DNA of 64,000 nucleotides from an uncultured virus (IMG/VR IMGVR_UViG_3300032560_000010) (IMGVR_UViG_3300032560_000010:1-64000), one strand, 5' to 3'. Counted from the first letter of the stretch, positions 1,964 through 17,567 are shown. Notes: generated by a model from the letters alone, not told the origin. Translations and numbers: made by a program.

Positions 1964-1972
1964 CTCTTTTTT

Positions 1973-2044
1973 TGGTGGCTGGTAGTGGATTCGAACCACT
2001 CTGAGAGGCTTATGAAACCTCTTTAATCACCAGATCGACCAGCC
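1973..2044 (-). tRNA. tRNA-Met(CAT) (or Ile2), short D-arm
   Basis: GGCTGGT/ACCAGCC-A-CCA; GAGGT TTCATAA GCCTC; AGTGG TTCGAAT CCACT. Confidence 0.8.
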
Positions 2045-2265
2045 ATTGTGTTTTTAATCTTAGATTGTTCTATAACCAAATCAAGTTTATTTCGAAGGTT
2101 AATTGCATCAATTATTACCTGAAAATCCCCTCCTGCTATAGGTTTATTATTTTCAATTATATCATATGCATCTTTTTGATAATCCATAAGAGATATCTGT
2201 AGTTGTGTCATAAGTTTAGTAATAACTCGACCATCAACCCATGTTACGGTATTAGTCCTTTTCAT
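2023..2265 (-). CDS. hypothetical protein; stop codon inside tRNA-Met
   Basis: AAAGG RBS; last 22 nt overlap the tRNA 5' end. Confidence 0.65.
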   Translation of the reverse strand: MKRTNTVTWVDGRVITKLMTQLQISLMDYQKDAYDIIENNKPIAGGDFQVIIDAINLRNKLDLVIEQSKIKNTMAGRSGD

Positions 2266-2281
2266 AATATAAAACCTTTAA

Positions 2282-2303
2282 TGGTGCCGATGGTTAGATT
2301 CGA
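2282..2303 (-). pseudogene. tRNA 3'-end fragment (T-loop, T-stem 3' strand, acceptor 3' strand, CCA)
   Basis: TTCGAATCTAACCATCGGCACCA-like sequence with no matching 5' half nearby. Confidence 0.7.
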
Positions 2304-2319
2304 AACACATATATAGTTG

Positions 2320-2393
2320 CGGTGCCCCCAGAAGGAATCGAACCCTCGTGTCCAACTTACAAGATTGGCAGTCTACCATTGACTTATAGGGGC
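2320..2393 (-). tRNA. tRNA-Thr(TGT), ends ACCG instead of ACCA
   Basis: GCCCCTA/TGGGGGC; CCAAT CTTGTAA GTTGG. Confidence 0.9.
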
Positions 2394-2434
2394 ATTATGA
2401 CTATAATGAGATATAAATTATATTAGGAGTATAT

Positions 2435-3094
2435 ATGTATACAAATAAATGCATAACATGTCAAGAAAATTTTACCGTAAATAGAGACTCTAGGAAAAGA
2501 AAGTATTGCAATTCATGCAAAGAAAAACAACCCAAACCCTCTACTTCTAAGACCTGTAAAAATTGTCAGAAAAATTTTGCAACCCCGACATATCATCAAA
2601 GGGTAAAAATATTCTGCTCGCATTCTTGTTCTGCTGAATTTAATAATAAATTAAGATCAAAGAATATGGTACAAAAATTAAAGACAAATATTGTTAAGAA
2701 AAACATTGAGCCACAATTTTGTATTTTATGTAATACTAAAGTAAAGTTTAAAAAATCGAAATATTGTTCTAAAAATTGTGAACTGACACATAAAAAGAAA
2801 ATAAAACTAGACAAATTTGAAAAAGGTGAATTATCTTCCAAATTGGCTAAAGATATTCTCTTAGAGAATCACGGTAACATATGCTTGAATACAACTTGCG
2901 CATGGGATTTCACAAAGAAATTTGTCAGTGTTGAACTTGAACATATAGATGGTAACTCAGAAAATAATTTACCAGAAAATTTGACCTTACTATGCCCAAA
3001 CTGCCATTCTTTAACGTCAACTTATAAAGCTAAAAATAAAGGAAATGGTAGATCTGTCAGAATGGAAAGATATTATTCTGGTAAAAGTTATTGA
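2435..3094 (+). CDS. HNH homing endonuclease with N-terminal Cys zinc-finger repeats
   Basis: ELEHIDGNSENNLPENLTLLCPNCHS HNH motif; multiple CxxC; inserted in reverse within the tRNA cluster. Confidence 0.9.
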   Translation: MYTNKCITCQENFTVNRDSRKRKYCNSCKEKQPKPSTSKTCKNCQKNFATPTYHQRVKIFCSHSCSAEFNNKLRSKNMVQKLKTNIVKKNIEPQFCILCNTKVKFKKSKYCSKNCELTHKKKIKLDKFEKGELSSKLAKDILLENHGNICLNTTCAWDFTKKFVSVELEHIDGNSENNLPENLTLLCPNCHSLTSTYKAKNKGNGRSVRMERYYSGKSY

Positions 3095-3099
3095 AAGGT

Positions 3100-3186
3100 T
3101 GGTACGGGCGACAGGACTCGAACCTGCATGAGTAAAACTCGGGAAATTTTAAGTCTCCGGTGTCTACCAAATTCCACCACGCCCGC
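3100..3186 (-). tRNA. tRNA-Leu(TAA)
   Basis: GCGGGCG/CGCCCGT-A-CCA; GGAGA CTTAAAA TTTCC; V-arm. Confidence 0.95.
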
Positions 3187-3196
3187 AAAATAATGT

Positions 3197-3361
3197 TTAA
3201 TTAAAAGGATGAAAAAATGTTTTTTCTTTCCCGCAATGAGAACATTTATAATCCATAAACGTTCCATGGTTATTTGAATTATCTTCAATATTTTCTGATA
3301 CAGTTGTATTATTATACAACCAATCATGAAAACCCAATTTACATAGAATATTCTTAATCAT
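3197..3361 (-). CDS. small Zn-binding protein (DUF1660-like), 54 aa
   Basis: Hand translation MIKNILCKLGFHDW...YKCSHCGKEK; AAAGG RBS. Confidence 0.65.
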   Translation of the reverse strand: MIKNILCKLGFHDWLYNNTTVSENIEDNSNNHGTFMDYKCSHCGKEKTFFHPFN

Positions 3362-3379
3362 AATATAAAACCTTTTAAC

Positions 3380-3464
3380 TGGTGCCCTGAGTGAGACTTG
3401 AACTCACATTCCCGAAGGATCCAAATTTTGAATCTGGTGCGTCTACCAATTCCACCATCAGGGC
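3380..3464 (-). tRNA. tRNA-Leu(CAA)
   Basis: GCCCTGA/TCAGGGC-A-CCA; CCAGA TTCAAAA TTTGG; V-arm. Confidence 0.95.
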
Positions 3465-3536
3465 ATTCAACTTATATAGGACAGTTTTTATAATGTGTCA
3501 ATCATTATTTTATATAAGTGGTTAATCCACATATAA

Positions 3537-3580
3537 AAATCCCTATCAAATACCGTGGTAGATATATCTGATAGGGATTT
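3537..3580 (-). terminator. stem-loop downstream of the GP88-like gene (probable terminator)
   Basis: aaatccctatca...tgatagggattt 12-bp inverted repeat. Confidence 0.5.
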
Positions 3581-3598
3581 AAAAGTCAATACTAATTT

Positions 3599-4816
3599 TT
3601 AGTGATTGATGCGAATAATTCCATCATGATCTACTTTATTTGCAAAATGTCCTGCGGCTTCGTTTTTAACGCCTTTTAAGCGTAAACCAGATACAACACC
3701 ATGTCCAGCTTTACCGAGCGTTCTACCAGCTTGTGCGTGACGATCAAAGGTATTATCATCATGATCCCCGTTTACGATAGGGTATCTACGGCCAGATTTC
3801 ACATCTTCAACATGAGTAGGATTTGGAACATCCTTACCCCTGTGATAAACCATAGCCACTGTATGTCCACCTTCCAATTTCTTAACTGATTCATGATCGT
3901 TTGATTCAGCATGTCCTGTCCCTGTATGCGAAAGTGTAAGATGATAATTTTCAGGCGTTTTAGGATGGCCGACACGGTTAGGAATTTTTGTGTAATCATA
4001 AAATTGGGCACCCGGATGACGCTTAAAAAGTTGCGGAGCATGATGTTCCCATGAAATATCCGAAGTAACATTCATACGAACTCCCGGTTTATATCCCTTC
4101 TTTGTTGCTGCCTTAACGTGATTACCAATTTCATGATCAATTAATCGTCCAGCATGTTCAGGATGCATTGCCAAATAATGTGTTCTCAAAACTTTGGCCG
4201 ATAATGCTGCGTCTGGATATTGTTTATTTCCACCAGCTTCTGTACCCAAGCAATTTGCACGGCATTCTTTAGAAGCACGAGGGCAAACATCAAACTTATG
4301 AAGACCATTAGTTGCGTGTGGTGCTAAAGAAAGTCCTTTTGTATGAACCATCTCACCTGTGGATTTCTTAGTCTTACCATTTTCACCTAGCATAGATGGA
4401 CCAGTTTTATATCCACGACTTTGGGCAAAAGAATTCCAATGAGCCTTTGATTCTTTAAGTTTTGCACTAGATTGTGAAGGAGATTCGTGTTCCATCGATT
4501 CAAACGTATGACGAAGTTTTTGCCCCATTGTCTTATGTACATTTGCCCCATCAGGAAGCTCAGAATTGCCCTGTTGAATAAGGGCACGAGTCTTAGGTAA
4601 ATTCATAGACTTATGAGCAAACTTTTCAACATCGACATCTTCAAAAATGCTGCCAAACATTTTATCATCCACGCCTTCATGCATAGATCCTGTGTGCATA
4701 GATGGATCGGAAGGACTACTTACATGGAATAAAAAGTCATGAAGACACTTATTGGTGATTAATGGATGTTCGCTGACAGCCATTGCTTCAGCCAAAAATG
4801 AGGTAAAAGTTTTCAT
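3599..4816 (-). CDS. Gene product 88 (GP88)-family protein with N-terminal head-packaging-like leader
   Basis: CPxASxxCxxxC, RMNVTSDISWE, QFYDYTK, NYHLTLS motifs; MKTFTSFLAE leader; CCTAAATA late promoter at 4852-4859. Confidence 0.7.
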   Translation of the reverse strand: MKTFTSFLAEAMAVSEHPLITNKCLHDFLFHVSSPSDPSMHTGSMHEGVDDKMFGSIFEDVDVEKFAHKSMNLPKTRALIQQGNSELPDGANVHKTMGQKLRHTFESMEHESPSQSSAKLKESKAHWNSFAQSRGYKTGPSMLGENGKTKKSTGEMVHTKGLSLAPHATNGLHKFDVCPRASKECRANCLGTEAGGNKQYPDAALSAKVLRTHYLAMHPEHAGRLIDHEIGNHVKAATKKGYKPGVRMNVTSDISWEHHAPQLFKRHPGAQFYDYTKIPNRVGHPKTPENYHLTLSHTGTGHAESNDHESVKKLEGGHTVAMVYHRGKDVPNPTHVEDVKSGRRYPIVNGDHDDNTFDRHAQAGRTLGKAGHGVVSGLRLKGVKNEAAGHFANKVDHDGIIRINH

Positions 4817-4864
4817 AGTTTAAAATATCCCTGTTGATGTTGTACTTATTCTATTTAGGGTTTA

Positions 4865-4955
4865 TGGTGCTTCCAAACGGTCCCGATCCGTAAACCTATT
4901 TCTAGGTTCCCTTTGTTTAGCAAACAAGGACAGCCACCCGACTGCTCTACCTTCC
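4865..4955 (-). tRNA. tRNA-Ser(GCT)-like, 8/4 type, with non-pairing acceptor stem (pseudo/chimeric)
   Basis: 6-bp D-stem GCAGTC/GGCTGT; TTGCTAA loop; V-arm AACCTA GAAA TAGGTT; T-stem ACGG/CCGT. 5' GGAAGGTA versus 3' TTGGAAGC-A-CCA do not pair. Confidence 0.65.
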
Positions 4956-5009
4956 ATTGACTTATATATCGGTCATTAAATGCCTTTATGCCTCATATAG
5001 CAGTCATTA

Positions 5010-5099
5010 TGGCGGAACCGGTGGGATTCGAACCCACGGACCCCGTAAAGGGTCGCCACCTTTCCAAGATGGTGCCTTAGACCGCTCGGCCACAGTTCC
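5010..5099 (-). tRNA. tRNA-Ser(GGA)
   Basis: Canonical class II cloverleaf; CCATC TTGGAAA GGTGG; G73-CCA. Confidence 0.95.
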
Positions 5100-5164
5100 A
5101 GTTATAACTTAAAATATTTACCGCACTTTAATCTGTAACTAATAGTTTGATTACTTACACTATT

Positions 5165-5217
5165 CTCCGAGAATTACTAATAGATTTACGTTATCTACTA
5201 TTTAGTAATTCTCGGAG
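5165..5217 (-). promoter_or_regulatory. RBS-sequestering hairpin containing a late promoter (orphan copy, ORF lost)
   Basis: 16-bp perfect stem; TAAATA at the 5' arm and GGAG in the 3' arm, followed by GTG TAA. Homologous to 13415-13468. Confidence 0.75.
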
Positions 5218-5224
5218 TTCTATG

Positions 5225-5311
5225 AGGAAGGCGGGTGGTGTCGATCCCCACACCCGTTAAGGTGCCACTAGTTTTCAAGACTAGGCTGTAGGCCGCTACA
5301 GTTCACCTTCC
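5225..5311 (-). tRNA. tRNA-Ser(TGA), 8/4-type, no encoded CCA
   Basis: GGAAGGTG/CGCCTTCC 8 bp; D-stem CTGTAG/CTACAG; CTAGT CTTGAAA ACTAG; T-stem GGGG/CC(A)CC. Confidence 0.85.
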
Positions 5312-5379
5312 ATATTCATTATATATGTATAATAGGCTTAACCCATGTTAATTTAATCCGCTTGATTGGAACCATTATT

Positions 5380-6000
5380 TTACATAGTTGGGCCATTACC
5401 ATTTTTAAACCCAATTTCTCCGCCTTGATCAATAATGGCCTGACATACATCATCAAACAGCATAGGTTTGAATTCCGTATGCTCGGCAGATACACAAAAA
5501 TATCTTGGATCTATTCCTTCTTTATAAAAGGTCTGATATCCAAAACTTCCACCGGGACCATCTAGTTCTTTGTATGGAACTTTCGTCATAACCCTGTTAG
5601 AATGAAGATGACCATGTATATTACATCCGAACCTTCCAAGAGACTCAGCATGAATTGGGATATGAGATAGAATCAACCCATTCATTACATGGTAACCACG
5701 AATATCATAAAAATACGGAGTATAATCAGTCAATTTAAAAATATCATGATTGCCCTTGATCAAAACCTTCTTTCCATTCAGTTTACCAAATGTAGACAGA
5801 TGTTTACGACCAATAACCGCATCTCCTAGTACATAAACTTTATCGTTATCTTGAACTGTATCATTCCACAGTTCAATCATAGCAATATCCATCTCTTCCG
5901 CCGAATTCCAAGGCCGAATGGGGTTACCATTTTTATCTGTAAAAACACACATATTGTTATGTCCAAAATGTGTATCAGCGATTAGAAATGTTCTACTCAT
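5380..6000 (-). CDS. calcineurin-like metallophosphoesterase
   Basis: DTHFGH, LGD, GNHD, HIP, HGHLH motifs. Confidence 0.9.
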   Translation of the reverse strand: MSRTFLIADTHFGHNNMCVFTDKNGNPIRPWNSAEEMDIAMIELWNDTVQDNDKVYVLGDAVIGRKHLSTFGKLNGKKVLIKGNHDIFKLTDYTPYFYDIRGYHVMNGLILSHIPIHAESLGRFGCNIHGHLHSNRVMTKVPYKELDGPGGSFGYQTFYKEGIDPRYFCVSAEHTEFKPMLFDDVCQAIIDQGGEIGFKNGNGPTM

Positions 6001-6009
6001 ATTTATTCC

Positions 6010-6171
6010 TTACAAATGATCCATTAAAATATCCGACCATTTTTCAATTATTTCATCTCTGATATCATCGTCAAGATCGTTCCATTCATCTCCGATACCT
6101 TTACGAGATTCCAAATCTTTAACAATGGCCTCTGCCGCTTCTCTATACGAAGCAATATCATTTGTCAACAT
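6010..6171 (-). CDS. small acidic hypothetical protein (53 aa)
   Basis: Hand translation MLTNDIASYREAAEAIVKDLESRKGIGDEW...; GAGGAG RBS. Confidence 0.65.
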   Translation of the reverse strand: MLTNDIASYREAAEAIVKDLESRKGIGDEWNDLDDDIRDEIIEKWSDILMDHL

Positions 6172-6181
6172 CCTTGACTCC

Positions 6182-6649
6182 TCAAACATAAGAAATTTTA
6201 GAAAAACCTTCTTCCATCATGGGATGTTGAAAATTCATCGCCATAGATTCCAAAACATGTTTTGGAATTGTCTTACCGAGACGAGAATCCAACCTACGCT
6301 GCCATTCTTCTTTATCTGGAACAGGAAATACAACAGCCTTAAAATTATATCCAAATGGTTTCAAAATATCGATAATTCTTTTCCGAGACTTCACCGAAAG
6401 ATTAGTACGATCAATGTAGATATCAGACCCAGCTTCAGCTAACTTAGCCAGACGATTAAACATGGTTTTCTCAGCAAACCCTATAAGATCTTTAAATGCT
6501 GCATCATATGTCATCATATAGGTATTAGCAATATCTTCAATAATTCGATCTGTAGAAACAACAAAGGTATTAAAATCTTTCTGTGCATCAACCCAAGTGG
6601 ATTTACCGGATCCGGGAACGCCGACTAAAAAAGTACATTTACGCATCAT
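6182..6649 (-). CDS. polynucleotide kinase-like P-loop kinase (AAA_33 / PseT kinase domain)
   Basis: GVPGSGKSTW, STD, DRTNL...R motifs. Confidence 0.85.
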   Translation of the reverse strand: MMRKCTFLVGVPGSGKSTWVDAQKDFNTFVVSTDRIIEDIANTYMMTYDAAFKDLIGFAEKTMFNRLAKLAEAGSDIYIDRTNLSVKSRKRIIDILKPFGYNFKAVVFPVPDKEEWQRRLDSRLGKTIPKHVLESMAMNFQHPMMEEGFSKISYV

Positions 6650-6824
6650 CAGATCCTTTCTTCTTAAAAGTATACTTCAATTTTGGAACAACAACCATTT
6701 GTTGAGTTTCATTATAATAAGGATTAACCGAAACTCCAACCAATTCCCAACCTTCTCGTTTATGCCATGCCAGAGTTTCAGGAGAAAGTCCAGTTTTAAC
6801 TGTCAAAATATTATAATTACTCAT
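6639..6824 (-). CDS. DUF4177-like small protein
   Basis: EGWELVGV...YTFKK. Confidence 0.55.
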   Translation of the reverse strand: MSNYNILTVKTGLSPETLAWHKREGWELVGVSVNPYYNETQQMVVVPKLKYTFKKKGSDDA

Positions 6825-7929
6825 AATCTCTTACGCCTTTAAATTTTCCAAATCTTGGTATACCATCAGGAGTATAATCCTGAAATACTACAGTACCCAT
6901 TTTACCTATAATTTGAGATTTGTCAACCAAAAGTTGTCGGCAATATTCGAGAGAACCTAATGGACCACTTCCAAATAATTTACCTTCTTTTGTCTGACAA
7001 ATTACATTCGCAGCTACTCCCTCACGATTACCATCTCCATCCACCACATCAATAATCAAAAATTCATCATCCTGAAATTCTTTCCATTTCATTAATGATG
7101 TCGAACGCTTAAATTCATATTTTTCATTGAGACGTACCATGCCACCTTCAAACTCAGATTGTAGATATTCCGAACATACATTACCGACATTTTCCAATGG
7201 ACAGTCGAGAATAGTATCTACGGCCACAATAGAAGGATGATTAATAACATATACGATTGCCTCATACGTAGAATATCTTTGTATAAATCCTACATCTATA
7301 GATGGCACATCATAAATCCAGTATTGAACCTTGGCAGCAGATTCGATAAGATCTTCCGCAGTTGGAGTTTTTTTCTTAATCAATGACATTATCTTATTAA
7401 AATTACGGCTATATTCATGGTTATAAAGTTCGCCGTCCAGAATAAGATCTGGGAATTGTTCAAATAATGGTGCCAACGCATCCGAAATATGGGGAACAGA
7501 TACAAATAATTCTTTATTACGAGAAAAACATCCATCTTTGGTGACGATACATCTGGCACCATCTAATTTTGGTTGGACTGATACTGAGGTAACTCCGGCT
7601 TCAATTAAAAACCGTAGACGATCTTTCCATTTTGTTGCCAACATAGGTTCAACACCTTGTCTGTTATCAACATCATTAATGTTTTCAAAATAGCCTTTTT
7701 TTATTTGTTTTTCATACATCGCTATTACTTCAAGTTCGGCCTGATCTTCTGGCGAAGTTTCGTTAGTTTTTCCTACATTTTTAGACTTACACCTAGTCCA
7801 ACTAGAAATAGTCTTCTTTCCATCTATTTGGCCAGAAATAGTATGGTAAGACCCCCCATCGATTTCTGCGTACCAAATTTGAATATTACCTTTGGTTGTT
7901 CTTTTATACAGATGAGGTTTCGTTTTCAT
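6817..7929 (-). CDS. ATP-dependent DNA ligase
   Basis: QPKLDGAR (motif I), LDGELY, EGGMVR, KWK, PRF; likely start MKTKPHL. Confidence 0.9.
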   Translation of the reverse strand: MKTKPHLYKRTTKGNIQIWYAEIDGGSYHTISGQIDGKKTISSWTRCKSKNVGKTNETSPEDQAELEVIAMYEKQIKKGYFENINDVDNRQGVEPMLATKWKDRLRFLIEAGVTSVSVQPKLDGARCIVTKDGCFSRNKELFVSVPHISDALAPLFEQFPDLILDGELYNHEYSRNFNKIMSLIKKKTPTAEDLIESAAKVQYWIYDVPSIDVGFIQRYSTYEAIVYVINHPSIVAVDTILDCPLENVGNVCSEYLQSEFEGGMVRLNEKYEFKRSTSLMKWKEFQDDEFLIIDVVDGDGNREGVAANVICQTKEGKLFGSGPLGSLEYCRQLLVDKSQIIGKMGTVVFQDYTPDGIPRFGKFKGVRDYE

Positions 7930-11691: not shown

Positions 11692-11704
11692 ATTAATTCT
11701 CCCT

Positions 11705-11920
11705 TTATGCCGCAACACACATATGAAAATGAAGACCCGTTTCGAGAGCTTTATGGCCGATTGCCACCGGAAAGAATCTTCCTTCTGGCGTAGCTGCAAT
11801 AACCACATTTTGATTAGCATCACCAAGAATTTTCTCTGCCGCTTTAACAGCATTCGCATAAGTCTTATACGTTTTCAGAGCAGTATTGATGTCTGACGAT
11901 CCATTCCAAAGAACTTTCAT
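11705..11920 (-). CDS. hypothetical early protein
   Basis: AAGGA RBS before MKVLW; TTGACA promoter upstream. Confidence 0.65.
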   Translation of the reverse strand: MKVLWNGSSDINTALKTYKTYANAVKAAEKILGDANQNVVIAATPEGRFFPVAIGHKALETGLHFHMCVAA

Positions 11921-12095
11921 GCTACTTCCTTTCGGTCTTGATGTAACTCTTCTAACGTATTTTAAATTAGGTGTCAACAATTAATTTAAAACAATTTCAG
12001 AAAGAAGCACATATCCATGAACACTAGGAAGTGCCTTATATTCATATAGATGGTAAAGAATGGAATTGTAGTTTGTGATAATTCCGGGAATAATT

Positions 12096-12169
12096 TGGTA
12101 TCCGAGGGCGGTAACGCTCCACCGTCTATGAATTATCAGTTCATTGCTCTACTTTTGAGCTACACGGAT
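12096..12169 (-). tRNA. tRNA-Ile(GAT)
   Basis: ATGAA CTGATAA TTCAT; atypical T-loop AGCGTTA; ACCA. Confidence 0.85.
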
Positions 12170-12172
12170 ATC

Positions 12173-12247
12173 TGGATGCCCCGTTTGGACTCGAACCAAA
12201 ACCTACAGATTCAAAGTCTGTTGTCACTACCATTAGACTAAGGGGCA
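12173..12247 (-). tRNA. tRNA-Gln(TTG)
   Basis: ACAGA CTTTGAA TCTGT; U1-A72. Confidence 0.95.
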
Positions 12248-12260
12248 TTAATTTTTATTA

Positions 12261-12334
12261 TGGATGCCCTCCAAGGACTCGAACCTTGATTCACGGAGTC
12301 AGAGTCCGCTCTCTTACCATTAGAGGAAAGGGCA
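12261..12334 (-). tRNA. tRNA-Gln(CTG)
   Basis: GCGGA CTCTGAC TCCGT. Confidence 0.95.
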
Positions 12335-12348
12335 ATATAGTATATATG

Positions 12349-12507
12349 TTACTTTTTAAACATAGGATATGTTAATCTTTGATATAGCAAATAAGAACCA
12401 ATTATCCCACTAAATATAGCAAGGCTATAATGCCCAATAAATATATCGGCTATACATCCCAGCAAATTCAAAATTATAAGAATCATATGTATAATTTTTA
12501 TTGTCAT
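12349..12507 (-). CDS. small 2-TM membrane protein (52 aa)
   Basis: Hand translation MTIKIIHMILIILNLLGCIADIFIGHYSLAIFSG...YPMFKK. Confidence 0.6.
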   Translation of the reverse strand: MTIKIIHMILIILNLLGCIADIFIGHYSLAIFSGIIGSYLLYQRLTYPMFKK

Positions 12508-12513
12508 AATATT

Positions 12514-12687
12514 TCACTTTTTCTTAAACAAAGGAGAGTATATTAGTTGGTGAGTTATGGCTAGAGCGAATAACCCGCTTATAAAAGAACTAATATACTC
12601 ACCAGAATATAATTCTGTCACACACGCCATCGCATTTAATGCGGCAAGGATAGTTCCTATGGCTTCAAACAATTTGTACTTTGGCAT
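12514..12687 (-). CDS. small 2-TM membrane protein (57 aa), paralog of 12349-12507
   Basis: Hand translation MPKYKLFEAIGTILAALNAMACVTELYSGEYISSFISG...YSPLFKKK. Confidence 0.6.
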   Translation of the reverse strand: MPKYKLFEAIGTILAALNAMACVTELYSGEYISSFISGLFALAITHQLIYSPLFKKK

Positions 12688-12707
12688 GTCATTACTTTCA
12701 TTTTATA

Positions 12708-12785
12708 TGGTAGCCCCACCGAGTTTCGATCCCGGATCATAGACTTGAGAGGTCTATATGCTACCCAACTTACACCATGGGGGCC
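12708..12785 (-). tRNA. tRNA-Glu(CTC)
   Basis: TAGAC CTCTCAA GTCTA; acceptor has one extra C; ACCA. Confidence 0.85.
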
Positions 12786-13408
12786 GTTCTTCCTTTATAC
12801 CATCCATCTGGAATATTGTCAATTCTTTTTATCTTTTTATTTACTATACCATCAGTAATCCATTGTGTTCCAAATTGTGAGTTTTCTTTTCCACAATTTT
12901 TTCCTATTTTAGATAAACGCATTTTATTTTTAGATTCATCTGAATGTTTTTTACCAAGAAATGTAGAAAATGCTTCTTTACCGTGGCGTTCTATAATCTT
13001 AGATATTCTATTTAATTTCCAACTTTCGGATGAATGATATTCTTTAAATTGTTTAGATGTATAATTTCTACGACTATATCCTCCCATGCTAGAAGCTCGT
13101 GGTGATCTTAGTCCATTTGAATTAATATAACTAAATCCACCTTTACCTCCAACACAGATATTGTAGGTGTCATTTCTTGCACAAAACTCTTCAGTTACTA
13201 ATTCGGCTTCCTTGGAATTCATCTCAAATTTGGTATCAAAAATATATACGATTTCTTTATCAAAATTACTTATTCCATATTTTTCAATGGCATGATTCAA
13301 TAATGTTCCTGATCCCATATATGAATCTTTTAAATTCTTTGTTTGATGTTTTCCGATATAAATTTTACCATTTATCTTATTTGTTATTTTATAAATTGTA
13401 TAAAACAA
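12770..13408 (-). CDS. Seg-like GIY-YIG homing endonuclease with NUMOD3 motif
   Basis: YTIYKITNKINGKIYIGKH, YMGSG, YNICVGG, GKKHSDESK motifs; TTG start. Confidence 0.9.
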   Translation of the reverse strand: MFYTIYKITNKINGKIYIGKHQTKNLKDSYMGSGTLLNHAIEKYGISNFDKEIVYIFDTKFEMNSKEAELVTEEFCARNDTYNICVGGKGGFSYINSNGLRSPRASSMGGYSRRNYTSKQFKEYHSSESWKLNRISKIIERHGKEAFSTFLGKKHSDESKNKMRLSKIGKNCGKENSQFGTQWITDGIVNKKIKRIDNIPDGWYKGRTAPMV

Positions 13409-13414
13409 AATATT

Positions 13415-13468
13415 CTCCGGGTTTACATAATTAGATTTACCATATGTACTATATATGTAAACCCGGAG
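13415..13468 (-). promoter_or_regulatory. RBS-sequestering hairpin with late-promoter variant, controlling the Seg-like gene
   Basis: 15-bp perfect stem hides GGAG 6 nt upstream of TTG; CATATATA at the 5' arm. Confidence 0.8.
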
Positions 13469-13475
13469 TTCTATG

Positions 13476-13548
13476 TAGAGCAGACGGGGTTCGAACCCGC
13501 TTACACTTGATTGAAAATCAAGCCGCCCGCCGATTAGCGTTCTGCTCC
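13476..13548 (-). tRNA. tRNA-Glu(TTC), no encoded CCA
   Basis: GGAGCAG/CTGCTCT-A; CTTGA TTTTCAA TCAAG. Confidence 0.85.
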
Positions 13549-13551
13549 ATA

Positions 13552-14103
13552 TTAATCAATAGTAACCGTAACTCCGGTTTTTTCTATTGGCTTTAATAAA
13601 TCATAATATATGCTATATATAGCATGTTTATGTGCTATGTCAATATCTTTTTTCGCATCATCCATAAAAAATTTTCTAGCAGAGATAATATTTTGATTCC
13701 GCATATTATCTCTGATATCTGTACTCAAAAGTAACCACGAACCATTATCATAATTTTTAATAGTTGTCGAATCAATATTAGGGGTACTTATAAAAGTTTT
13801 TGGCAAATGTACAGATATCTTTTTATTAGCATAATCTACGTTATAAGTTATCTTATTTAAACTTGTTTTAAATTCTACAGAACCACTTATAATAGATGAT
13901 AGCTCTGCCTTCATTTTATAGTTTTGGTATGTAGATGTCGCCACTGTTGTAGAATTATATTCTAATGATACTAGATCACTCTTTTCTTTTAATTGAGAAA
14001 TAGCATTCACTACAGTACCGATATTATCCCAATCACTCCGAGCCATAACCCCAATTATAAAATAAGTTATTAATGCACCAGCTATACAAGATTTATACCC
14101 CAT
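13552..14103 (-). CDS. DUF4230-like membrane-anchored protein
   Basis: N-terminal TM; V..I.QL...SDLVSLEY; ISVHLPK..I..PNID pattern. Confidence 0.65.
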   Translation of the reverse strand: MGYKSCIAGALITYFIIGVMARSDWDNIGTVVNAISQLKEKSDLVSLEYNSTTVATSTYQNYKMKAELSSIISGSVEFKTSLNKITYNVDYANKKISVHLPKTFISTPNIDSTTIKNYDNGSWLLLSTDIRDNMRNQNIISARKFFMDDAKKDIDIAHKHAIYSIYYDLLKPIEKTGVTVTID

Positions 14104-15160
14104 AATGACGAATTGCCTTATAATTGGTAGATGTTTTTTGAGAATAAATTTTCAACTCTTTACCTTGATAAGAAATCAGGGGTTTAGAACATCCATGCGA
14201 AATCCAATTAAGAGCATGTGTCCTAGCATAGGCTGGATTATGGTGGGCCGTAGCAATATATTCCACCATTTGCTCTCTTTGATAAACACAACGCTTATTA
14301 AATTTTATAATTTGATCTGAATTCATCTTTTTAATCAAAGACATAATATTATAAGTTGAAAAATAATATGCAGCCCGATCACTTGTCAACCCCTGAAGTT
14401 TAATTACAGAGGTCGGAAGCTTATGATGACGAGAATACTTACTAATTTTATTAGCAGGTCGCAATCCATCTTTATCAAATCCTACGGCATAGGATGTAAA
14501 TTGATATCTACCCATGCTAAGCAAAGTATCTCCCAATGACGGAATATTATCCAGAAAATTACGACCACCTTCTTTCATATAAAGATTCATCATAATATAA
14601 TTCTGCTCACCATTACGATATGGCATCAATTCCGTCATAGAATACGCTGTAAGAGCATTTGCATCAATTTGGATGGCAGAGTACACTAGTCCCCAACAAT
14701 GCGCTGTATCAAGCTTATTATCAACACACAAATGTCCCCAATTAATATCGTTCTTAACCTTACCAAGGTCCATATTCAAAATATGATTATGGCGAACGAT
14801 TGACATCTTTTCAGGCGAAGAATTTACATAATGGTCAATAATAGACGATGCAGATGATACAGTGGCAGGAGAAACATTTTGAATATGCAATTTCTTATTC
14901 CATACACGTTTCATAGACGAATTCCAATCCACAGTCTTGGAATTTGGAATATTTCCATTGAAGTCTAAATACCCAAATGACAGTTTGGATAGACCAGCTT
15001 TTTTAACTGGTGCAAAATCAACTGGTCCTCTTTTATCAATACGATGTGACAATTCAAACCTAAACAATGGTTTAAATCCAGCATAATCGTTCTTAAAAGG
15101 CGCTAAACCAATAATCATCGGAATAGCAGCCAATTTAACCAAATTATAAACATTACTCAT
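14093..15160 (-). CDS. exported hypothetical protein, possible lysozyme-like fold
   Basis: N-terminal hydrophobic stretch; MTELMP and SMGRYQFT motifs. Confidence 0.5.
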   Translation of the reverse strand: MSNVYNLVKLAAIPMIIGLAPFKNDYAGFKPLFRFELSHRIDKRGPVDFAPVKKAGLSKLSFGYLDFNGNIPNSKTVDWNSSMKRVWNKKLHIQNVSPATVSSASSIIDHYVNSSPEKMSIVRHNHILNMDLGKVKNDINWGHLCVDNKLDTAHCWGLVYSAIQIDANALTAYSMTELMPYRNGEQNYIMMNLYMKEGGRNFLDNIPSLGDTLLSMGRYQFTSYAVGFDKDGLRPANKISKYSRHHKLPTSVIKLQGLTSDRAAYYFSTYNIMSLIKKMNSDQIIKFNKRCVYQREQMVEYIATAHHNPAYARTHALNWISHGCSKPLISYQGKELKIYSQKTSTNYKAIRHYGV

Positions 15161-15224
15161 AATATACTCCTGTCTTATTTTAGGACTATACCAGAGAAAG
15201 GTTAATGTCAAGTTAATTTTGGTG

Positions 15225-15440
15225 TTATTCTTTTATATTAGCGGCTGCTAATGCCCATTCTATCATTTCTTGAACGGCAACTCTATTTTTGAATTGACTT
15301 CTATGATATTCACACGATGCTTCAATTCCTGTTGGATATTCTCCAATATAATGGATACCTTTTATCCCAGATTTATAGCATCCGGTGGTCTGGCCGCCGG
15401 GATGTTCACGAATAGGCCAAGATTCATACTTAATAGGCAT
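15225..15440 (-). CDS. stand-alone RF-1/GGQ peptidyl-tRNA hydrolase domain (mini ArfB/PrfH-like)
   Basis: PGGQ...SGI...H...PTGIEASC...RSQFKNR matches release-factor domain 3. Confidence 0.75.
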   Translation of the reverse strand: MPIKYESWPIREHPGGQTTGCYKSGIKGIHYIGEYPTGIEASCEYHRSQFKNRVAVQEMIEWALAAANIKE

Positions 15441-15442
15441 TT

Positions 15443-15769
15443 TTAAAACCCTAGATAAAAATCTGTCGGATAATATAAAATTGGAAGTTTAGTAGCTTCA
15501 ATTCGTTCGTCTATAGCAGAATTAATTGAATTTCTTAATTCTTCTAATTTAGAAGCAAAGAACTCGTTGAATTTATTAGGAACCTCATATCCAAGATGTG
15601 GAAGTTCAAAATCTAATTTAGATCCTACTTGCCAAAAATCTTCATACTTAACAAGTTTGTCTTCATAATAATGAACTCTGGCTAGAAAAACTTTAGTCAC
15701 AAAATTATGAAATCTATCTTTTTCAACAACGGCAACTAATCTAATTTCTGTTTTATGTAGACTCATCAA
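15443..15769 (-). CDS. hypothetical protein
   Basis: ORF with AGGA RBS. Confidence 0.65.
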   Translation of the reverse strand: MMSLHKTEIRLVAVVEKDRFHNFVTKVFLARVHYYEDKLVKYEDFWQVGSKLDFELPHLGYEVPNKFNEFFASKLEELRNSINSAIDERIEATKLPILYYPTDFYLGF

Positions 15770-15782
15770 TATATCCTAAATT

Positions 15783-15856
15783 TGGTGCGGATGGGGAGAA
15801 TCGAACTCCCGACTCAACACTGGCAATGTCGCACGTTACCCCTACGCCACACCCGC
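15783..15856 (-). tRNA. tRNA-Gly(GCC)
   Basis: GCGGGTG/CATCCGC-A-CCA; CGACA TTGCCAG TGTTG. Confidence 0.95.
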
Positions 15857-16372
15857 AATCCTAACTTGAGTTGTTCTATTTAAAGGAACTTGTCTAACAT
15901 ATTCACCTTCAGCTTTACGATTACTCCAAGGCTTTAAATTATGTTCCAAAATTACCTTATCTTTGATAATAACAGCTCTAGTACATTCTTTATTCAACTG
16001 AACATAATATACACCATATTCATCTGCCAATGGGTTAGGAATTTTAGAGGTGAAACTTTTTTCTCTTCGCCATTGGTGATCTTTTCGTTCAATACAATTA
16101 ATTGCCCCGAATGGAAACGCAACATCACCTTGCCAATTACCGTGACGAACCTCGATTTCCCAACAATAAATTACTTCTCCATCTGAATTTAATGTAAGAA
16201 GATCGATGCCATGCTCATTTGCATTATCGATGGTCTTATATCCCTTAGCTTCAAATTGAAGATTCAAAAATTTACGAAATGCATCCCGCCCTTTTTTGTC
16301 ATATGTATTATGTTCGACACGATCAAACTTTTTAAGAGTGCCACGCATTCCCCGAGAAGTTGCTACTGTCAT
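15842..16372 (-). CDS. PD-(D/E)xK-like nuclease; stop inside tRNA-Gly
   Basis: GIDLL...WEIEVR motif; GAGG RBS before MTVAT. Confidence 0.55.
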   Translation of the reverse strand: MTVATSRGMRGTLKKFDRVEHNTYDKKGRDAFRKFLNLQFEAKGYKTIDNANEHGIDLLTLNSDGEVIYCWEIEVRHGNWQGDVAFPFGAINCIERKDHQWRREKSFTSKIPNPLADEYGVYYVQLNKECTRAVIIKDKVILEHNLKPWSNRKAEGEYVRQVPLNRTTQVRIAGVA

Positions 16373-16392
16373 ATCATATACCTCATAATAAA

Positions 16393-16478
16393 TGGAGAAC
16401 CGGCGGGGTAACGCTCCCACTTACGCCTTTCGAAACAGTTTTGCAGACTGTTGCAAGGACTTCCTCACGCACCGGCTC
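16393..16478 (-). tRNA. tRNA-Cys(GCA), non-canonical 8/4 Sec-like
   Basis: GAGCCGGT/GCCGGTTC 8 bp; U73-CCA; 6-bp D-stem; AACAGT CTGCAAA ACTGTT; G(T)GGG/CCCC T-stem. Confidence 0.8.
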
Positions 16479-16523
16479 TGATTATATGTATATATTATAC
16501 AAAACCCTATGTCAAGAAATATT

Positions 16524-16949
16524 TCAGATAAAAACTTTCAAAGCTTTTAAGTCCTCTCCAACGTTTTCTTCTTCGATTGGACCTATACCAAGACAAACCG
16601 TAGTAGGTTGACTAAATACCGTTACTCCGGCGTCAGTGACAAGCGAAGTTCCACATATATCTTTATATGCTGTTTGTAGTGTAACTAATTCCTCAATGGT
16701 TTCAACAGCTAAAGTTATTTTATATGCCTTCTCAGTATTTTGGTAAGCTAAAGCTTGCATAGCTGCACCCCAATTAGCTGGGGTATGAGCATTAGCGCCA
16801 CCGCAGTCTAATATAACAGAATGAATTGCATCCCAATATGAATGAAGATATGCATGGCCAGCCATCGAAGCTAATTTACCACGATTACCATTCATTTTCT
16901 TTACAGATTCTTTTGCAAAGATACAATACATCACAATTTTAGACATCAT
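16524..16949 (-). CDS. peptidyl-tRNA hydrolase, Pth2 family
   Basis: GKLASMAGHA, KITL, DAGVT, TTVCLGIGP are Pth2 signature motifs. Confidence 0.85.
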   Translation of the reverse strand: MMSKIVMYCIFAKESVKKMNGNRGKLASMAGHAYLHSYWDAIHSVILDCGGANAHTPANWGAAMQALAYQNTEKAYKITLAVETIEELVTLQTAYKDICGTSLVTDAGVTVFSQPTTVCLGIGPIEEENVGEDLKALKVFI

Positions 16950-17121
16950 ATTTCCCTAATACCAACCGTTCAAATCCTCGTTTAGCTGCGGCCAAATCTT
17001 TCATGCCACATTCAAAACAAACTTCTTCACTATTAGGTCCATACGGACGAGTTTCTGCAATTTTATGACAAAGATCGCATACTCCATCATCCTCTGGTTG
17101 GATAATTCCAAATCTACTCAT
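16939..17121 (-). CDS. small Zn-finger protein
   Basis: CDLC...RPYGP...CFEC. Confidence 0.7.
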   Translation of the reverse strand: MSRFGIIQPEDDGVCDLCHKIAETRPYGPNSEEVCFECGMKDLAAAKRGFERLVLGKYDV

Positions 17122-17137
17122 AATAAATTCCTTAAAA

Positions 17138-17228
17138 TGGTGCGCCCGTCGAGACTTGAACTCGAACCAACCCCTAATCTGGGCATCCGGGATATAAATC
17201 CGGTCGTGCTACCTTACACTACAAGCGC
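17138..17228 (-). tRNA. tRNA-Ile(TAT) with long variable arm
   Basis: GCGCTTG/CGGGCGC-A-CCA; CCGGA TTTATAT CCCGG; ~21-nt variable region. Confidence 0.75.
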
Positions 17229-17235
17229 ATTAATT

Positions 17236-17310
17236 TGGTGCATCTTGAAGGTTACGCTCCTTCTATTCCTGCGTGTCGGGCAGGTATGATAACTACTTCA
17301 TCAAAGATGC
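17236..17310 (-). tRNA. tRNA-Val(GAC)
   Basis: CCTGC CCGACAC GCAGG (C33); T-loop AGCGTAA. Confidence 0.85.
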
Positions 17311-17325
17311 ATTCATTATATAAAC

Positions 17326-17388
17326 TGTGGGCTGATATGCGACTTTATATCAGTTTCCCTTGACTACCTCTAGGCGCTGTCAAGACCA
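17326..17388 (-). ncRNA. putative two-hairpin structured RNA between tRNA-His and tRNA-Val
   Basis: CTTGAC/GTCAAG and CTGATAT/ATATCAG stems, possibly closed by TGG/CCA. Confidence 0.4.
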
Positions 17389-17393
17389 TTTTC

Positions 17394-17469
17394 TGGGGTG
17401 GTTAACGGGTAACGATCCCGTCACTTCGGCTTCACAGGCCGACATGTATCCATCAACACCTTAACCACC
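17394..17469 (-). tRNA. tRNA-His(GTG) with encoded G-1 and C73
   Basis: G-GTGGTTA/TAACCAC-C-CCA; TCGGC CTGTGAA GCCGA. Confidence 0.9.
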
Positions 17470-17479
17470 ATAAAATATT

Positions 17480-17567
17480 TGGAGGACATTGTGGGTTCGA
17501 ATCCCACTATGCTCTTTCGAGAACGGATTAAGAGTCCGTTGCTTTCAACCTATTCCGCCATATGTCC
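17480..17567 (-). tRNA. tRNA with CTT (Lys) anticodon on a class II (V-arm) body
   Basis: ACGGA CTCTTAA TCCGT; V-arm CTC GAAA GAG; U73; T-loop ATTCGAA. Confidence 0.8.

What the first reader, a model, noticed from the sequence alone, without database searches (positions are those of the whole stretch)
2023..17567. Four ORFs take their stop codon from inside the next tRNA gene
2023-2265 ends in tRNA-Met (22-nt overlap), the Seg-like gene in tRNA-Glu(CTC) (16 nt), the PD-(D/E)xK gene in tRNA-Gly (15 nt) and 17550-17720 in the CTT tRNA (18 nt). RNase P cleavage at the tRNA 5' end would leave a non-stop mRNA, so tRNA maturation and full-length protein synthesis would compete. This could limit toxic nucleases (two of the four) and create a need for the neighbouring GGQ/Pth2 rescue factors (inference).
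Basis: partly seen in the sequence, partly recalled or inferred. Interest (0 to 1): 0.7.

Follow-up and report, generated by a model that had tools for sequence, protein, structure and literature searches.

The report
Phage genes ending inside tRNA genes
In the tRNA cluster of a large lake-water phage, four small genes, one of them a mobile homing-endonuclease gene, are packed so tightly against the next tRNA gene that they take their stop codon from it; this is common in phage tRNA clusters and is best read as a by-product of gene insertion and tight packing.

Summary
Four minus-strand ORFs end 22, 16, 15 and 18 nt inside the next tRNA gene. All four belong to real gene families.

It is not peculiar to this window. 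Among 234 distinct ORF-to-tRNA junctions in phage tRNA arrays, 53 overlap: 4 of 10 in the window and 49 of 224 elsewhere (p=0.24). Overlap lengths peak at 10 and 15 nt because tRNA positions U8-A9-G10 and T13-A14-R15 read as stop codons.

The Seg-like gene is a homolog of T4 SegB. It has a ribosome-binding-site hairpin and sits 66 nt after tRNA-Glu(UUC). Metagenome contigs from two runs carry an allele without it, where the two tRNA-Glu genes lie 5-6 nt apart. So this overlap was made by an insertion.

In all four families the conserved protein ends at the tRNA boundary, and most homologs do not overlap a tRNA.

It remains untested here because no RNA data exist. The link to GGQ/Pth2 has no support; published comparative work assigns PTH2 in large phages to rescue of ribosomes after host tRNA cleavage.

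Verdict: real, explained and moderately interesting.

The parts
2023..2265 (-). 80-aa ORF of a small-protein family of unknown function; its last 22 nt lie inside tRNA-Met
   Evidence: Nineteen homologs besides the query itself at E<=1e-3. In the 16 aligned, the protein ends 0-7 residues after the N72 column in 15, against 8 residues in the window.
1973..2044 (-). tRNA-Met(CAU)-like gene with C8 and a short D-arm; CCA is encoded
   Evidence: ARAGORN. Rfam gives 27.5 bits, below the cut-off. Cloverleaf minimum-energy fold with z = -3.8.
12770..13408 (-). SegB-like GIY-YIG homing endonuclease gene with a TTG start; its stop lies 16 nt inside tRNA-Glu(CUC)
   Evidence: Pfam SegE_GIY-YIG and NUMOD3. 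PHROG 314 homing endonuclease, E 2.8e-45. 44.7% identity over residues 1-207 to the annotated SegB of phage PP01.
13415..13468 (-). 15-bp hairpin in the endonuclease leader whose 3' arm holds the GGAG ribosome-binding site
   Evidence: Fold energy -27.2 kcal/mol, z = -5.75, 0 of 200 shuffles as stable. The same feature occurs in 38 of 43 homolog leaders.
12783..13474 (-). Segment absent from a natural endonuclease-less allele, replaced there by 9-10 letters
   Evidence: One contig in each of runs X18 and X22 joins 12782 to 13475 (tables 5, 5c and 8). A contig in X16 covers the endonuclease-bearing junction 12488-13163 with 0 differences.
12708..12785 (-). tRNA-Glu(CUC); the allele with the endonuclease has one extra C in the 5' acceptor strand
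   Evidence: (40.2 bits). The allele without the endonuclease has four C where the window has five, which by hand pairing gives a fully paired 7-bp acceptor stem.
13475..13548 (-). tRNA-Glu(UUC) upstream of the endonuclease; its encoded CCA is interrupted in this allele
   Evidence: Sixteen of 19 window tRNAs encode CCA and this one does not. The allele without the endonuclease reads A-CCA here.
15842..16372 (-). 176-aa conserved phage protein with a PD-(D/E)xK-like nuclease fold; its last 15 nt lie inside tRNA-Gly. The longest ORF starts at GTG 16420.
   Evidence: Nineteen related loci. Alignment A1. Model with pLDDT 84. Foldseek hits to the SPARDA nuclease, Hjc, D212, DpnI and I-Ssp6803I at E about 1e-4 to 2e-2.
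15783..15856 (-). tRNA-Gly(GCC), canonical; T13-A14-G15 supplies the stop
   Evidence: 58.7 bits.
17550..17720 (-). 56-aa basic protein with a Cys motif (unknown function); its last 18 nt lie inside the CUU tRNA
   Evidence: Homologs L100-L102 are 50-54% identical. The L100 homolog reads 41 nt into tRNA-Ile(GAU).
17480..17567 (-). Long-variable-arm tRNA with anticodon CUU; it has an A7/A66 mismatch and a shifted T-loop
   Evidence: 31.9 bits. Variants in X18 and X22 restore the 7:66 pair and a canonical T-loop (tables 3 and 4).
17742..17820 (-). tRNA-like gene found only by Rfam; its 3' end lies 21 nt before the 56-aa ORF start
   Evidence: 32.3 bits.
15225..15440 (-). 71-aa protein with a GGQ motif (weak RF-1 domain match)
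   Evidence: Pfam RF-1, 20.8 bits, below the cut-off of 35. The GGQ motif is seen in the translation.
16524..16949 (-). PTH2-type peptidyl-tRNA hydrolase
   Evidence: Pfam PF01981, 48.3 bits against a cut-off of 23. PHROG 11824.
18650..18678 (-). Perfect sigma-70 consensus match (12 of 12) at the head of the minus-strand tRNA cluster
   Evidence: This is a consensus match only. Overall, promoter-like sites are not above the shuffled expectation (38 found against 30 +/- 6).

Best explanation
This is the tRNA array of a large lake-water phage. Selfish and accessory ORFs have been inserted into the very short spacers between its tRNA genes.

The clearest case is a SegB-type GIY-YIG homing-endonuclease cassette, made of a hairpin leader plus the ORF. 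It landed between tRNA-Glu(UUC) and tRNA-Glu(CUC), which in the empty allele are only 5-6 nt apart. Almost no spacer is left, so each ORF runs into the next tRNA and stops at the first in-frame stop. That stop comes quickly because conserved tRNA positions (U8-A9-G10; T13-A14-R15; the D-loop) spell TAG or TAA. The 4-7 tRNA-encoded residues replace a short, unconserved natural tail.

Shown here: the overlaps, the insertion polymorphism, the recurrence next to many different tRNAs, and the stop-trap property of tRNA sequence.

Inferred: ORFs and tRNAs are co-transcribed, so RNase P cutting would yield some stop-less mRNA. This is a tolerated side effect that may also help keep the endonuclease scarce, on top of its hairpin-masked ribosome-binding site and TTG start.
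For: 1. A natural empty site. One contig in each of two runs joins 12782 to 13475, with 9-10 other letters in place of 692 nt.
2. SegB homology, and a leader hairpin like the one described for T4 segB (PMC2988022 passages).
3. Of 62 distinct SegB-like proteins, 43 start 45-75 nt after an upstream tRNA. Fifteen read into the next tRNA and 10 more stop 0-10 nt before it. The downstream tRNAs are of many different identities.
4. The overlap state is scattered on the protein tree: 9 changes for 13 overlapping rows, at least 6 of them forced by well-supported branches.
5. Overlap lengths peak at 10 nt (17 junctions) and 15 nt (10 junctions). In 569 distinct tRNAs the first stop ends at position 10 in 302 and at position 15 in 119. 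Shuffled tRNAs have a stop within 22 nt in only 24-31%.
6. The conserved part of all four proteins ends at the tRNA boundary.
7. In the cultured Rhizobium phage RHph_TM30 a SegB-like ORF overlaps tRNA-Ala by 10 nt and is not annotated.
Against: - SegB-like ORFs overlap tRNAs more often than other ORFs do (14 of 40 against 33 of 187, Fisher p = 0.019). That could reflect selection for overlap in nucleases and not only their habit of landing between tRNAs.
- Overlapping junctions favour the two frames with early stops (26, 17 and 10; chi-square p = 0.026).
- For the three ORFs other than the endonuclease, no empty-site allele was seen, so insertion is inferred from family distribution only.
- No RNA data exist to show what happens to the transcripts.
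Confidence: 0.7

Rival explanations
1. Adaptive competition. The stop codon is kept inside the tRNA so that RNase P maturation turns the upstream mRNA into a stop-less message. This caps the dose of toxic nucleases and couples it to tRNA processing. Phage GGQ and PTH2 proteins then clear the stalled ribosomes.
For: - Two of the four ORFs are nuclease-type genes.
- SegB-like genes overlap more often than other ORFs (p = 0.019).
- The endonuclease shows other signs of restrained expression, namely the hairpin over its ribosome-binding site and a TTG start.
- The idea is in print for T4 segB (PMC2330249).
- GGQ and PTH2 genes lie within 1.5 kb of two of the junctions.
Against: - Most homologs do not overlap (47 of 62 SegB-like proteins).
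- The overlap arises repeatedly and is not inherited.
- The tails are unconserved.
- Two of the four ORFs are not nucleases.
- T4 and PP01 segB keep their own stop 5 and 3 nt before the tRNA.
- PTH2 in tRNA-rich phages already has a published rationale, rescue after host tRNA cleavage (PMC7824862).
- The 71-aa GGQ protein is below the Pfam cut-off.
Confidence: 0.2
2. The overlapped tRNAs are decaying tRNA-like elements kept mainly as RNA-processing signals that define mRNA 3' ends, like the t-elements of plant mitochondria (a comparison recalled from memory).
For: - Three of the four overlapped tRNAs are among the five lowest Rfam scores of the 19 tRNAs: 27.5, 31.9 and 40.2 bits.
- Each has a structural oddity: the extra C in tRNA-Glu(CUC), C8 and a short D-arm in tRNA-Met, and the A7/A66 mismatch with a shifted T-loop in the CUU tRNA.
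Against: - The score difference is not significant (Mann-Whitney p = 0.13).
- tRNA-Gly is fully canonical (58.7 bits).
- Close relatives carry canonical versions of the Glu(CUC) and CUU tRNAs, so the defects are recent and allele-specific.
- Across other phages the overlapped tRNAs include ordinary ones.
Confidence: 0.06
3. Annotation artefact: the ORFs are not genes, or the tRNA 5' ends are misplaced, so there is no real overlap.
For: - ARAGORN and Rfam differ by 1 nt at two of the 5' ends.
- Three of the ORFs have no Pfam or PHROG family.
- Some overlapping ORFs of 60 aa or more in other loci look like read-through of tRNA arrays.
Against: - All four ORFs have homologs at 36-68% identity.
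- Acceptor-stem pairing fixes each 5' end to within 1 nt.
- Every stop lies at least 15 nt inside the tRNA.
Confidence: 0.03

Closest known systems
Phage T4 SegB, a free-standing GIY-YIG homing endonuclease in the T4 tRNA gene cluster (PMC2330249; review PMC2988022)
   Same: - Same protein family (44.7% identity over the full length to the annotated SegB of PP01).
- It lies between two tRNA genes.
- A hairpin covers its ribosome-binding site.
- It is present or absent among close relatives.
- The paper's discussion proposes that tRNA-precursor processing separates the ORF from its stop codon and lowers expression.
- SegB recognises the conserved T-arm motif of many tRNA genes. That would explain how such cassettes come to sit next to many different tRNAs.
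   Different: - In T4 and PP01 the stop codon lies 5 and 3 nt upstream of tRNA-Arg. Here it is 16 nt inside the tRNA.
- The window gene starts with TTG.
- Its insertion goes with an interrupted CCA in the upstream tRNA and an extra C in the downstream one.
- Cleavage specificity was not tested here.
tRNA punctuation of mitochondrial transcripts (recalled from general knowledge)
   Same: The ORFs are flanked directly by tRNAs, so excising the tRNAs would define the mRNA ends.
   Different: In mitochondria, incomplete stops are completed by polyadenylation. Here, adding A residues after the predicted cut creates no stop in any of the four ORFs (read). There are no RNA data.
Ordinary gene-gene overlaps in compact phage genomes (general knowledge, recalled)
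   Same: A stop codon placed inside the next gene as a result of tight packing. For example, the L111 homolog of the 80-aa ORF overlaps the next ORF by 4 nt.
   Different: Here the downstream partner is a structured RNA gene whose conserved positions supply the stop. Annotation practice tends to hide such cases, as with the unannotated ORF in Rhizobium phage RHph_TM30.

Membership tests
SegB-type free-standing GIY-YIG homing endonuclease | GIY-YIG catalytic domain with a NUMOD-type DNA-binding region | tested here: met
   Pfam SegE_GIY-YIG, 27.1 bits (cut-off 25). NUMOD3, 20.4 bits (cut-off 20.4). PHROG 314 homing endonuclease, E 2.8e-45.
SegB-type free-standing GIY-YIG homing endonuclease | Full-length similarity to characterised or annotated SegB | tested here: met
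   tblastn match over residues 1-207 at 44.7% identity, E 2e-42, to the segB gene of phage PP01. The T4 segB region was inspected.
SegB-type free-standing GIY-YIG homing endonuclease | Located in an intergenic spacer of a tRNA gene cluster | tested here: met
   It lies between tRNA-Glu(UUC) and tRNA-Glu(CUC). Forty-three of 62 homologs start 45-75 nt after a tRNA.
SegB-type free-standing GIY-YIG homing endonuclease | Presence/absence polymorphism between closely related genomes | tested here: met
   Contigs lacking 12783-13474 occur in runs X18 and X22. A contig bearing the gene occurs in X16.
SegB-type free-standing GIY-YIG homing endonuclease | Ribosome-binding site sequestered in an RNA hairpin | tested here: met
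   Hairpin of -27.2 kcal/mol, z = -5.75, with GGAG in the 3' arm. Thirty-eight of 43 homolog leaders show the same.
SegB-type free-standing GIY-YIG homing endonuclease | Site-specific cleavage of tRNA genes at the T-arm motif, and homing in mixed infection | not testable with these tools
   Needs the purified protein and the empty-site DNA.
tRNA punctuation (mitochondrial type) | A truncated stop completed by polyadenylation after tRNA excision | tested here: not met
   The sequence just before each tRNA 5' end, followed by A residues, gives no in-frame stop in any of the four ORFs (read).
tRNA punctuation (mitochondrial type) | mRNA ends generated by RNase P or RNase Z cuts at flanking tRNAs | not testable with these tools
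   No RNA holder was listed for this sequence.
PD-(D/E)xK nuclease (the 176-aa ORF) | Restriction-endonuclease-like fold | tested here: met
   AlphaFold model with pLDDT 84.4. Foldseek hits include the SPARDA nuclease at E 1.1e-4, Hjc resolvases with TM about 0.5 by target, D212, DpnI and I-Ssp6803I.
PD-(D/E)xK nuclease (the 176-aa ORF) | Catalytic D...(D/E)xK residues | tested here: inconclusive
   D57, E72, E74, E95 and K97 are invariant in alignment A1. I did not map them onto a solved active site.
Peptidyl-tRNA hydrolase PTH2 | Match to the PTH2 domain above the curated cut-off | tested here: met
   PF01981, 48.3 bits against a cut-off of 23.
ArfB/RF-1 GGQ release-factor domain | RF-1 domain above the cut-off, plus a C-terminal tail that senses the empty mRNA channel | tested here: not met
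   RF-1 scores 20.8 bits against a cut-off of 35. The GGQ motif is present, but the protein is only 71 aa and I saw no ArfB-like tail (the tail criterion is recalled from memory).

The most novel reading that the evidence does not exclude
SegB-like endonuclease cassettes may be a class of mobile elements specialised for tRNA-tRNA spacers that often carry no stop codon of their own. They would rely on the invariant U8-A9-G10 of whichever tRNA lies downstream. Their mRNA would then be cut loose without a stop by RNase P. That would be a bacterial-virus version of tRNA punctuation which throttles a toxic nuclease through non-stop decay. Phage-encoded GGQ and PTH2 factors would help to recycle the stalled ribosomes.
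Probability: 0.15. Interest if true: 0.65.

Novelty: new variant of a known kind. Interest (0 to 1): 0.35.

Why it matters
It gives a simple, general rule for a pattern that annotation pipelines tend to suppress. In phage tRNA arrays, roughly one ORF-to-tRNA junction in five overlaps, and the stop is supplied by conserved tRNA positions. One cultured Rhizobium phage has a full-length SegB-like gene left unannotated at such a junction.

It also documents a natural allele pair, with and without the endonuclease, that shows collateral changes in both flanking tRNAs: a lost encoded CCA upstream and an extra acceptor-stem base downstream. That points to a cost of endonuclease invasion for the tRNA genes.

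If the regulatory reading were true, it would make the 2008 SegB hypothesis directly testable in many phages. As it stands the finding is well explained and of moderate interest.

Tried and rejected
- Near-identity DNA search of the first 20 kb against cultured phages: no match.
- Syntenic relatives for orthologous junctions: the neighbouring 372-aa protein found only the near-identical contig. tblastn of 30 window proteins against all loci showed no conserved gene order. Conservation could therefore only be tested across different contexts.
- RNA evidence: no RNA holder was listed for window 12000-18400. Only DNA contigs could be laid.
- Word-based homolog search for the 56-aa ORF returned only itself.
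- Pfam and PHROGs gave nothing for three of the four ORFs.
- Locus search with the 17-row alignment of the 80-aa family failed for lack of a conserved stretch. A 5-row alignment found one further locus, with no tRNA nearby.
- Test of whether overlapped tRNAs score lower in Rfam: not significant (p = 0.13).
- Promoter-like sites overall are not above shuffles (38 against 30 +/- 6). No terminator-like site separates the ORFs from their tRNAs.
- I did not fold or score the tRNA-Glu(CUC) of the allele without the endonuclease with a tool, because that needs an edited sequence. Its acceptor pairing was worked out by hand.
- Literature: three searches for ORF-tRNA overlap in phages found the SegB discussion but no survey of stop codons inside tRNA genes. 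That is not proof that none exists. Most subscription journals are outside the library.

Full report
WHAT THE WINDOW IS. The window is the first 64 kb of a 73,226-base IMG/VR virus record estimated at about 40% complete. The same sequence occurs in lake-water and freshwater metagenomes. Bases 600-18,400 hold a minus-strand array of tRNA genes. ARAGORN finds 16. Rfam adds three more, at 12099-12169, 5226-5311 and 17742-17820. Small ORFs and an RNA-repair and translation-rescue gene set are interspersed: Rnl1-type RNA ligase, an AAA_33 kinase, two metallophosphoesterases, an ATP-dependent ligase, PTH2, a 71-aa GGQ protein and an HNH endonuclease. A perfect sigma-70 consensus match (12 of 12) sits at the head of the array at 18678-18650. 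No terminator-like site lies between the ORFs and their tRNAs. Co-transcription is therefore plausible but not shown.

THE OBSERVATION. I read the four junctions base by base.
- ORF 2023-2265 ends with TAA at tRNA-Met positions 20-22, an overlap of 22 nt.
- The Seg-like ORF 12770-13408 ends with TAA 16 nt inside tRNA-Glu(CUC).
- ORF 15842-16420 ends with TAG, which is T13-A14-G15 of tRNA-Gly, an overlap of 15 nt.
- ORF 17550-17720 ends with TAG 18 nt inside the CUU tRNA. Acceptor pairing and Rfam place that tRNA's 5' end at 17567; ARAGORN says 17568.

All four ORFs are real gene families.
- The Seg-like protein matches GIY-YIG and NUMOD3 domains and PHROG 314.
- The 192-aa ORF has 19 related loci at 51-68% identity. 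Its homologs start at the position of its internal ATG, so the protein is probably 176 aa.
- The 56-aa ORF has three homologs at 50-54% identity.
- The 80-aa ORF has 19 homologs besides itself in a search of 1.84 billion representatives.

HOW COMMON IT IS. I collected 103 loci from IMG/VR with the four proteins, then ran ARAGORN and a plain ORF finder (ORFs of 60 aa or more, nearest downstream same-strand tRNA, stop between 300 nt before and 45 nt inside the tRNA). This gave 234 distinct junction sequences, of which 53 overlap. By family:
- SegB-like: 14 of 40
- PD-(D/E)xK family: 3 of 4
- 56-aa family: 2 of 2
- 80-aa family: 1 of 1
- All other ORFs: 33 of 187

Some of the 'other' ORFs look like read-through of tRNA arrays and are probably not genes, so 33 of 187 is an upper bound.

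The window itself gives 4 of 10 against 49 of 224 for the rest (Fisher p = 0.24), so the window is typical of such arrays. Overlap lengths are not spread evenly: 17 junctions overlap by exactly 10 nt and 10 by exactly 15 nt.

WHY THOSE LENGTHS. In 569 distinct tRNAs from these loci, reading in the frame of codons 2-4, 5-7 and 8-10 meets its first stop at position 10 in 302 cases (U8-A9-G10 = TAG). A stop falls within 22 nt in 70%. The frame starting at position 1 stops at position 15 in 119 cases (T13-A14-R15). The third frame has a stop within 22 nt in only 13%, and no stop at all in 242 cases. Shuffled tRNAs have a stop within 22 nt in 24-31%. A tRNA gene is thus a stop-codon trap in two of three frames, so an ORF that loses or never had its own stop gains only a few residues. 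The window's four cases use positions 13-15 (Gly), 14-16 (Glu), 16-18 (CUU) and 20-22 (Met, whose positions 8-10 read CGA).

THE SEG-LIKE GENE IS A SegB HOMOLOG THAT WAS INSERTED. tblastn against cultured phages finds 925 records. The annotated segB of the T4-like phage PP01 matches at 44.7% identity over residues 1-207.

The T4 SegB paper (PMC2330249; I read the abstract and passages found by term search) shows that SegB sits in the T4 tRNA cluster. It cuts many tRNA genes at a site containing the conserved T-arm motif, and it is absent from relatives. Its discussion proposes two brakes on expression: a hairpin over the ribosome-binding site, and processing during tRNA-Arg maturation that separates the ORF from its stop codon. 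The authors extend the second idea to the T5 endonucleases in that phage's tRNA cluster. The review PMC2988022 (passages) attributes segB processing to RNase E.

In the window, the 66-nt leader folds into a 15-bp hairpin (-27.2 kcal/mol, z = -5.75) whose 3' arm contains the GGAG just upstream of the TTG start.

The strongest evidence comes from laying metagenome contigs on 12000-18400. One contig in run X18 and one in X22 join 12782 directly to 13475, with 9 or 10 other letters in place of 692 nt. A contig in X16 covers the occupied junction (12488-13163) without a difference. Read on the minus strand, the empty allele is tRNA-Glu(UUC) ending in A-CCA, five or six T, then tRNA-Glu(CUC).

Two collateral differences go with the occupied allele.
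- The upstream tRNA no longer encodes CCA. Sixteen of the 19 window tRNAs do encode it.
- The downstream tRNA has five C where the empty allele has four. By hand pairing, four C give a perfect 7-bp acceptor stem, and five C leave a bulge or mismatch. This fits its odd 78-nt ARAGORN model and its 40.2-bit Rfam score.

I did not fold the empty-allele tRNA with a tool, because that needs an edited sequence.

THE SAME HABIT ACROSS THE FAMILY. Of 62 distinct SegB-like proteins in the fetched loci, 43 start 45-75 nt after the 3' end of an upstream tRNA. In 38 of those 43 leaders the ribosome-binding window is paired in the minimum-energy fold, with a median z of -6.4.

Downstream, the 62 divide as follows:
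- 15 read into the next tRNA (8 of them by exactly 10 nt)
- 10 stop 0-10 nt before it
- 11 stop 11-100 nt before
- 18 stop further away
- 8 have no downstream tRNA in the locus

The overlapped tRNAs are of many identities: Arg, Gln, Ile, Gly, Leu, His, Phe, Cys, Met and Glu.

Homology to the window protein ends at R207, two bases before the tRNA. T4 and PP01 SegB carry four more residues and their own stop, 5 and 3 nt before tRNA-Arg.

On a maximum-likelihood tree of 57 of the 62 proteins, the 13 overlapping rows need 9 changes of state, at least 6 of them forced by well-supported branches. Five proteins were dropped for length under 170 or over 260 aa, and the C-terminal tails were excluded from the alignment. 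Near-identical proteins sit in different downstream contexts, for example L068 against L076 and L036 against L044. Overlap therefore arises again and again according to where the cassette lands, and is not inherited as a trait.

In the cultured Rhizobium phage RHph_TM30 the SegB-like ORF overlaps tRNA-Ala by 10 nt, and no CDS is annotated there. The four other Rhizobium records also show no feature under the match.

THE OTHER THREE ORFs.
- The 176-aa protein models confidently (pLDDT 84.4). It matches PD-(D/E)xK nucleases: the SPARDA nuclease at E 1.1e-4, archaeal Hjc, D212, DpnI and I-Ssp6803I. Its homologs end 3-7 residues after an invariant Gln, and the window protein ends 7 after it, with the last four residues encoded by the tRNA. 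Only the L005/L009 pair (tRNA-Thr, 15 nt) also overlaps. An apparent overlap in L012 was a BLAST segment running through a stop, and true ORF calling puts that stop before the tRNA.
- In the 56-aa family, L100 reads 41 nt into tRNA-Ile(GAU), and L101 and L102 have no tRNA in the locus.
- For the 80-aa family I aligned 16 of the 19 homologs, leaving out P0008, P0017 and P0022 for length or partial match. Fifteen end 0-7 residues (median 2) after the N72 column, and the window protein ends 8 after it. The one further locus found has no tRNA, and its stop overlaps the next ORF by 4 nt.

No empty-site allele was seen for these three ORFs in the four runs laid. In X22, however, the 108-aa ORF just downstream of tRNA-Gly is replaced by 431 other letters, which shows how mosaic the array is.

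MECHANISM.
- Shown: the overlaps; the insertion polymorphism; the recurrence beside different tRNAs; the stop-trap property of tRNA sequence; the unconserved tails.
- Inferred: the array is transcribed as a precursor, and RNase P cutting at each tRNA 5' end would leave the upstream ORF without a stop.

I put about 70% on the overlaps being a tolerated by-product of insertion into minimal spacers and of genome packing. I put about 20% on overlap being kept by selection as an extra brake on nucleases. In favour of the latter, SegB-like ORFs overlap more often than others (p = 0.019) and the endonuclease carries other brakes on expression.

The link to GGQ and PTH2 is not needed. Published comparative genomics of jumbo phages (PMC7824862, passages read) places PTH2 with phage tRNAs and RNA-repair enzymes as a response to host cleavage of tRNAs. 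That is exactly the gene company seen here.

NOVELTY AND VERDICT. The kind is known: a SegB-type endonuclease in a phage tRNA cluster, with the idea that tRNA processing removes its stop. Three things appear to be new:
- The stop codon is literally shared with the tRNA.
- A general rule explains the overlap lengths.
- A natural occupied/empty allele pair shows changes in both flanking tRNAs.

Three literature searches found no survey of this, but the library lacks most subscription journals. The finding is real, explained and of moderate interest.

Noticed in passing
window 10085-11330 (-): The T4 Rnl1-type RNA ligase is split into two adjacent ORFs. ORF 10908-11330 matches profile positions 1-67, and ORF 10085-10897 matches positions 96-227 plus the C-terminal domain. 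This could be a frameshift, a split gene or an inserted element.
   Followed up: no
window 17480-17567 (-): A tRNA with a long variable arm (Leu/Ser-type shape) carries anticodon CUU (Lys). In runs X18 and X22 close relatives carry changes that restore the 7:66 acceptor pair and a canonical T-loop, so the window copy looks slightly degenerate.
   Followed up: partly
window 17138-17228 (-); also L005 and L047: tRNA-Ile(UAU) is 91 nt long and has an extra arm. Similar 91-92-nt tRNA-Ile(UAU) genes recur in unrelated viral contigs.
   Followed up: no
window 5226-5311, 12099-12169 and 17742-17820 (-): Three tRNA-like genes missed by ARAGORN but found by Rfam. By eye, the first is a long-arm tRNA with anticodon UGA that scores as 'tRNA-Sec' at 47.9 bits. 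The second is a tRNA-Ile(GAU) with an odd T-loop. The third is a 32-bit tRNA-like element with an unclear anticodon.
   Followed up: partly
window 15448-15770: In run X22 a close relative replaces the 108-aa ORF downstream of tRNA-Gly with 431 other letters (table 5). This is a second indel or replacement hotspot bounded by a tRNA.
   Followed up: no
window 2435-3094 (+): An HNH endonuclease ORF lies antisense to the tRNA array, between tRNA-Thr and tRNA-Leu(UAA). It ends 5 nt before the tRNA-Leu 3' end at 3100.
   Followed up: no
L106 (MN988521.1, Rhizobium phage RHph_TM30) 1201-1788: A full-length SegB-like ORF is unannotated in GenBank. It overlaps tRNA-Ala by 10 nt. The four related Rhizobium phage records also show no feature under the match.
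   Followed up: partly
SegB-like loci L020, L028, L029, L030, L031, L041, L057: In 7 of the 34 cassettes flanked on both sides, the two flanking tRNAs accept the same amino acid (Glu/Glu, Leu/Leu, Lys/Lys, Gln/Gln three times, Gly/Gly). This may reflect a preference for tandem isoacceptor pairs, or duplication linked to insertion.
   Followed up: no
window 18650-18678 (-): A perfect TTGACA-17-TATAAT match lies at the divergence point between the minus-strand tRNA array and the plus-strand genes that start at 18722.
   Followed up: no
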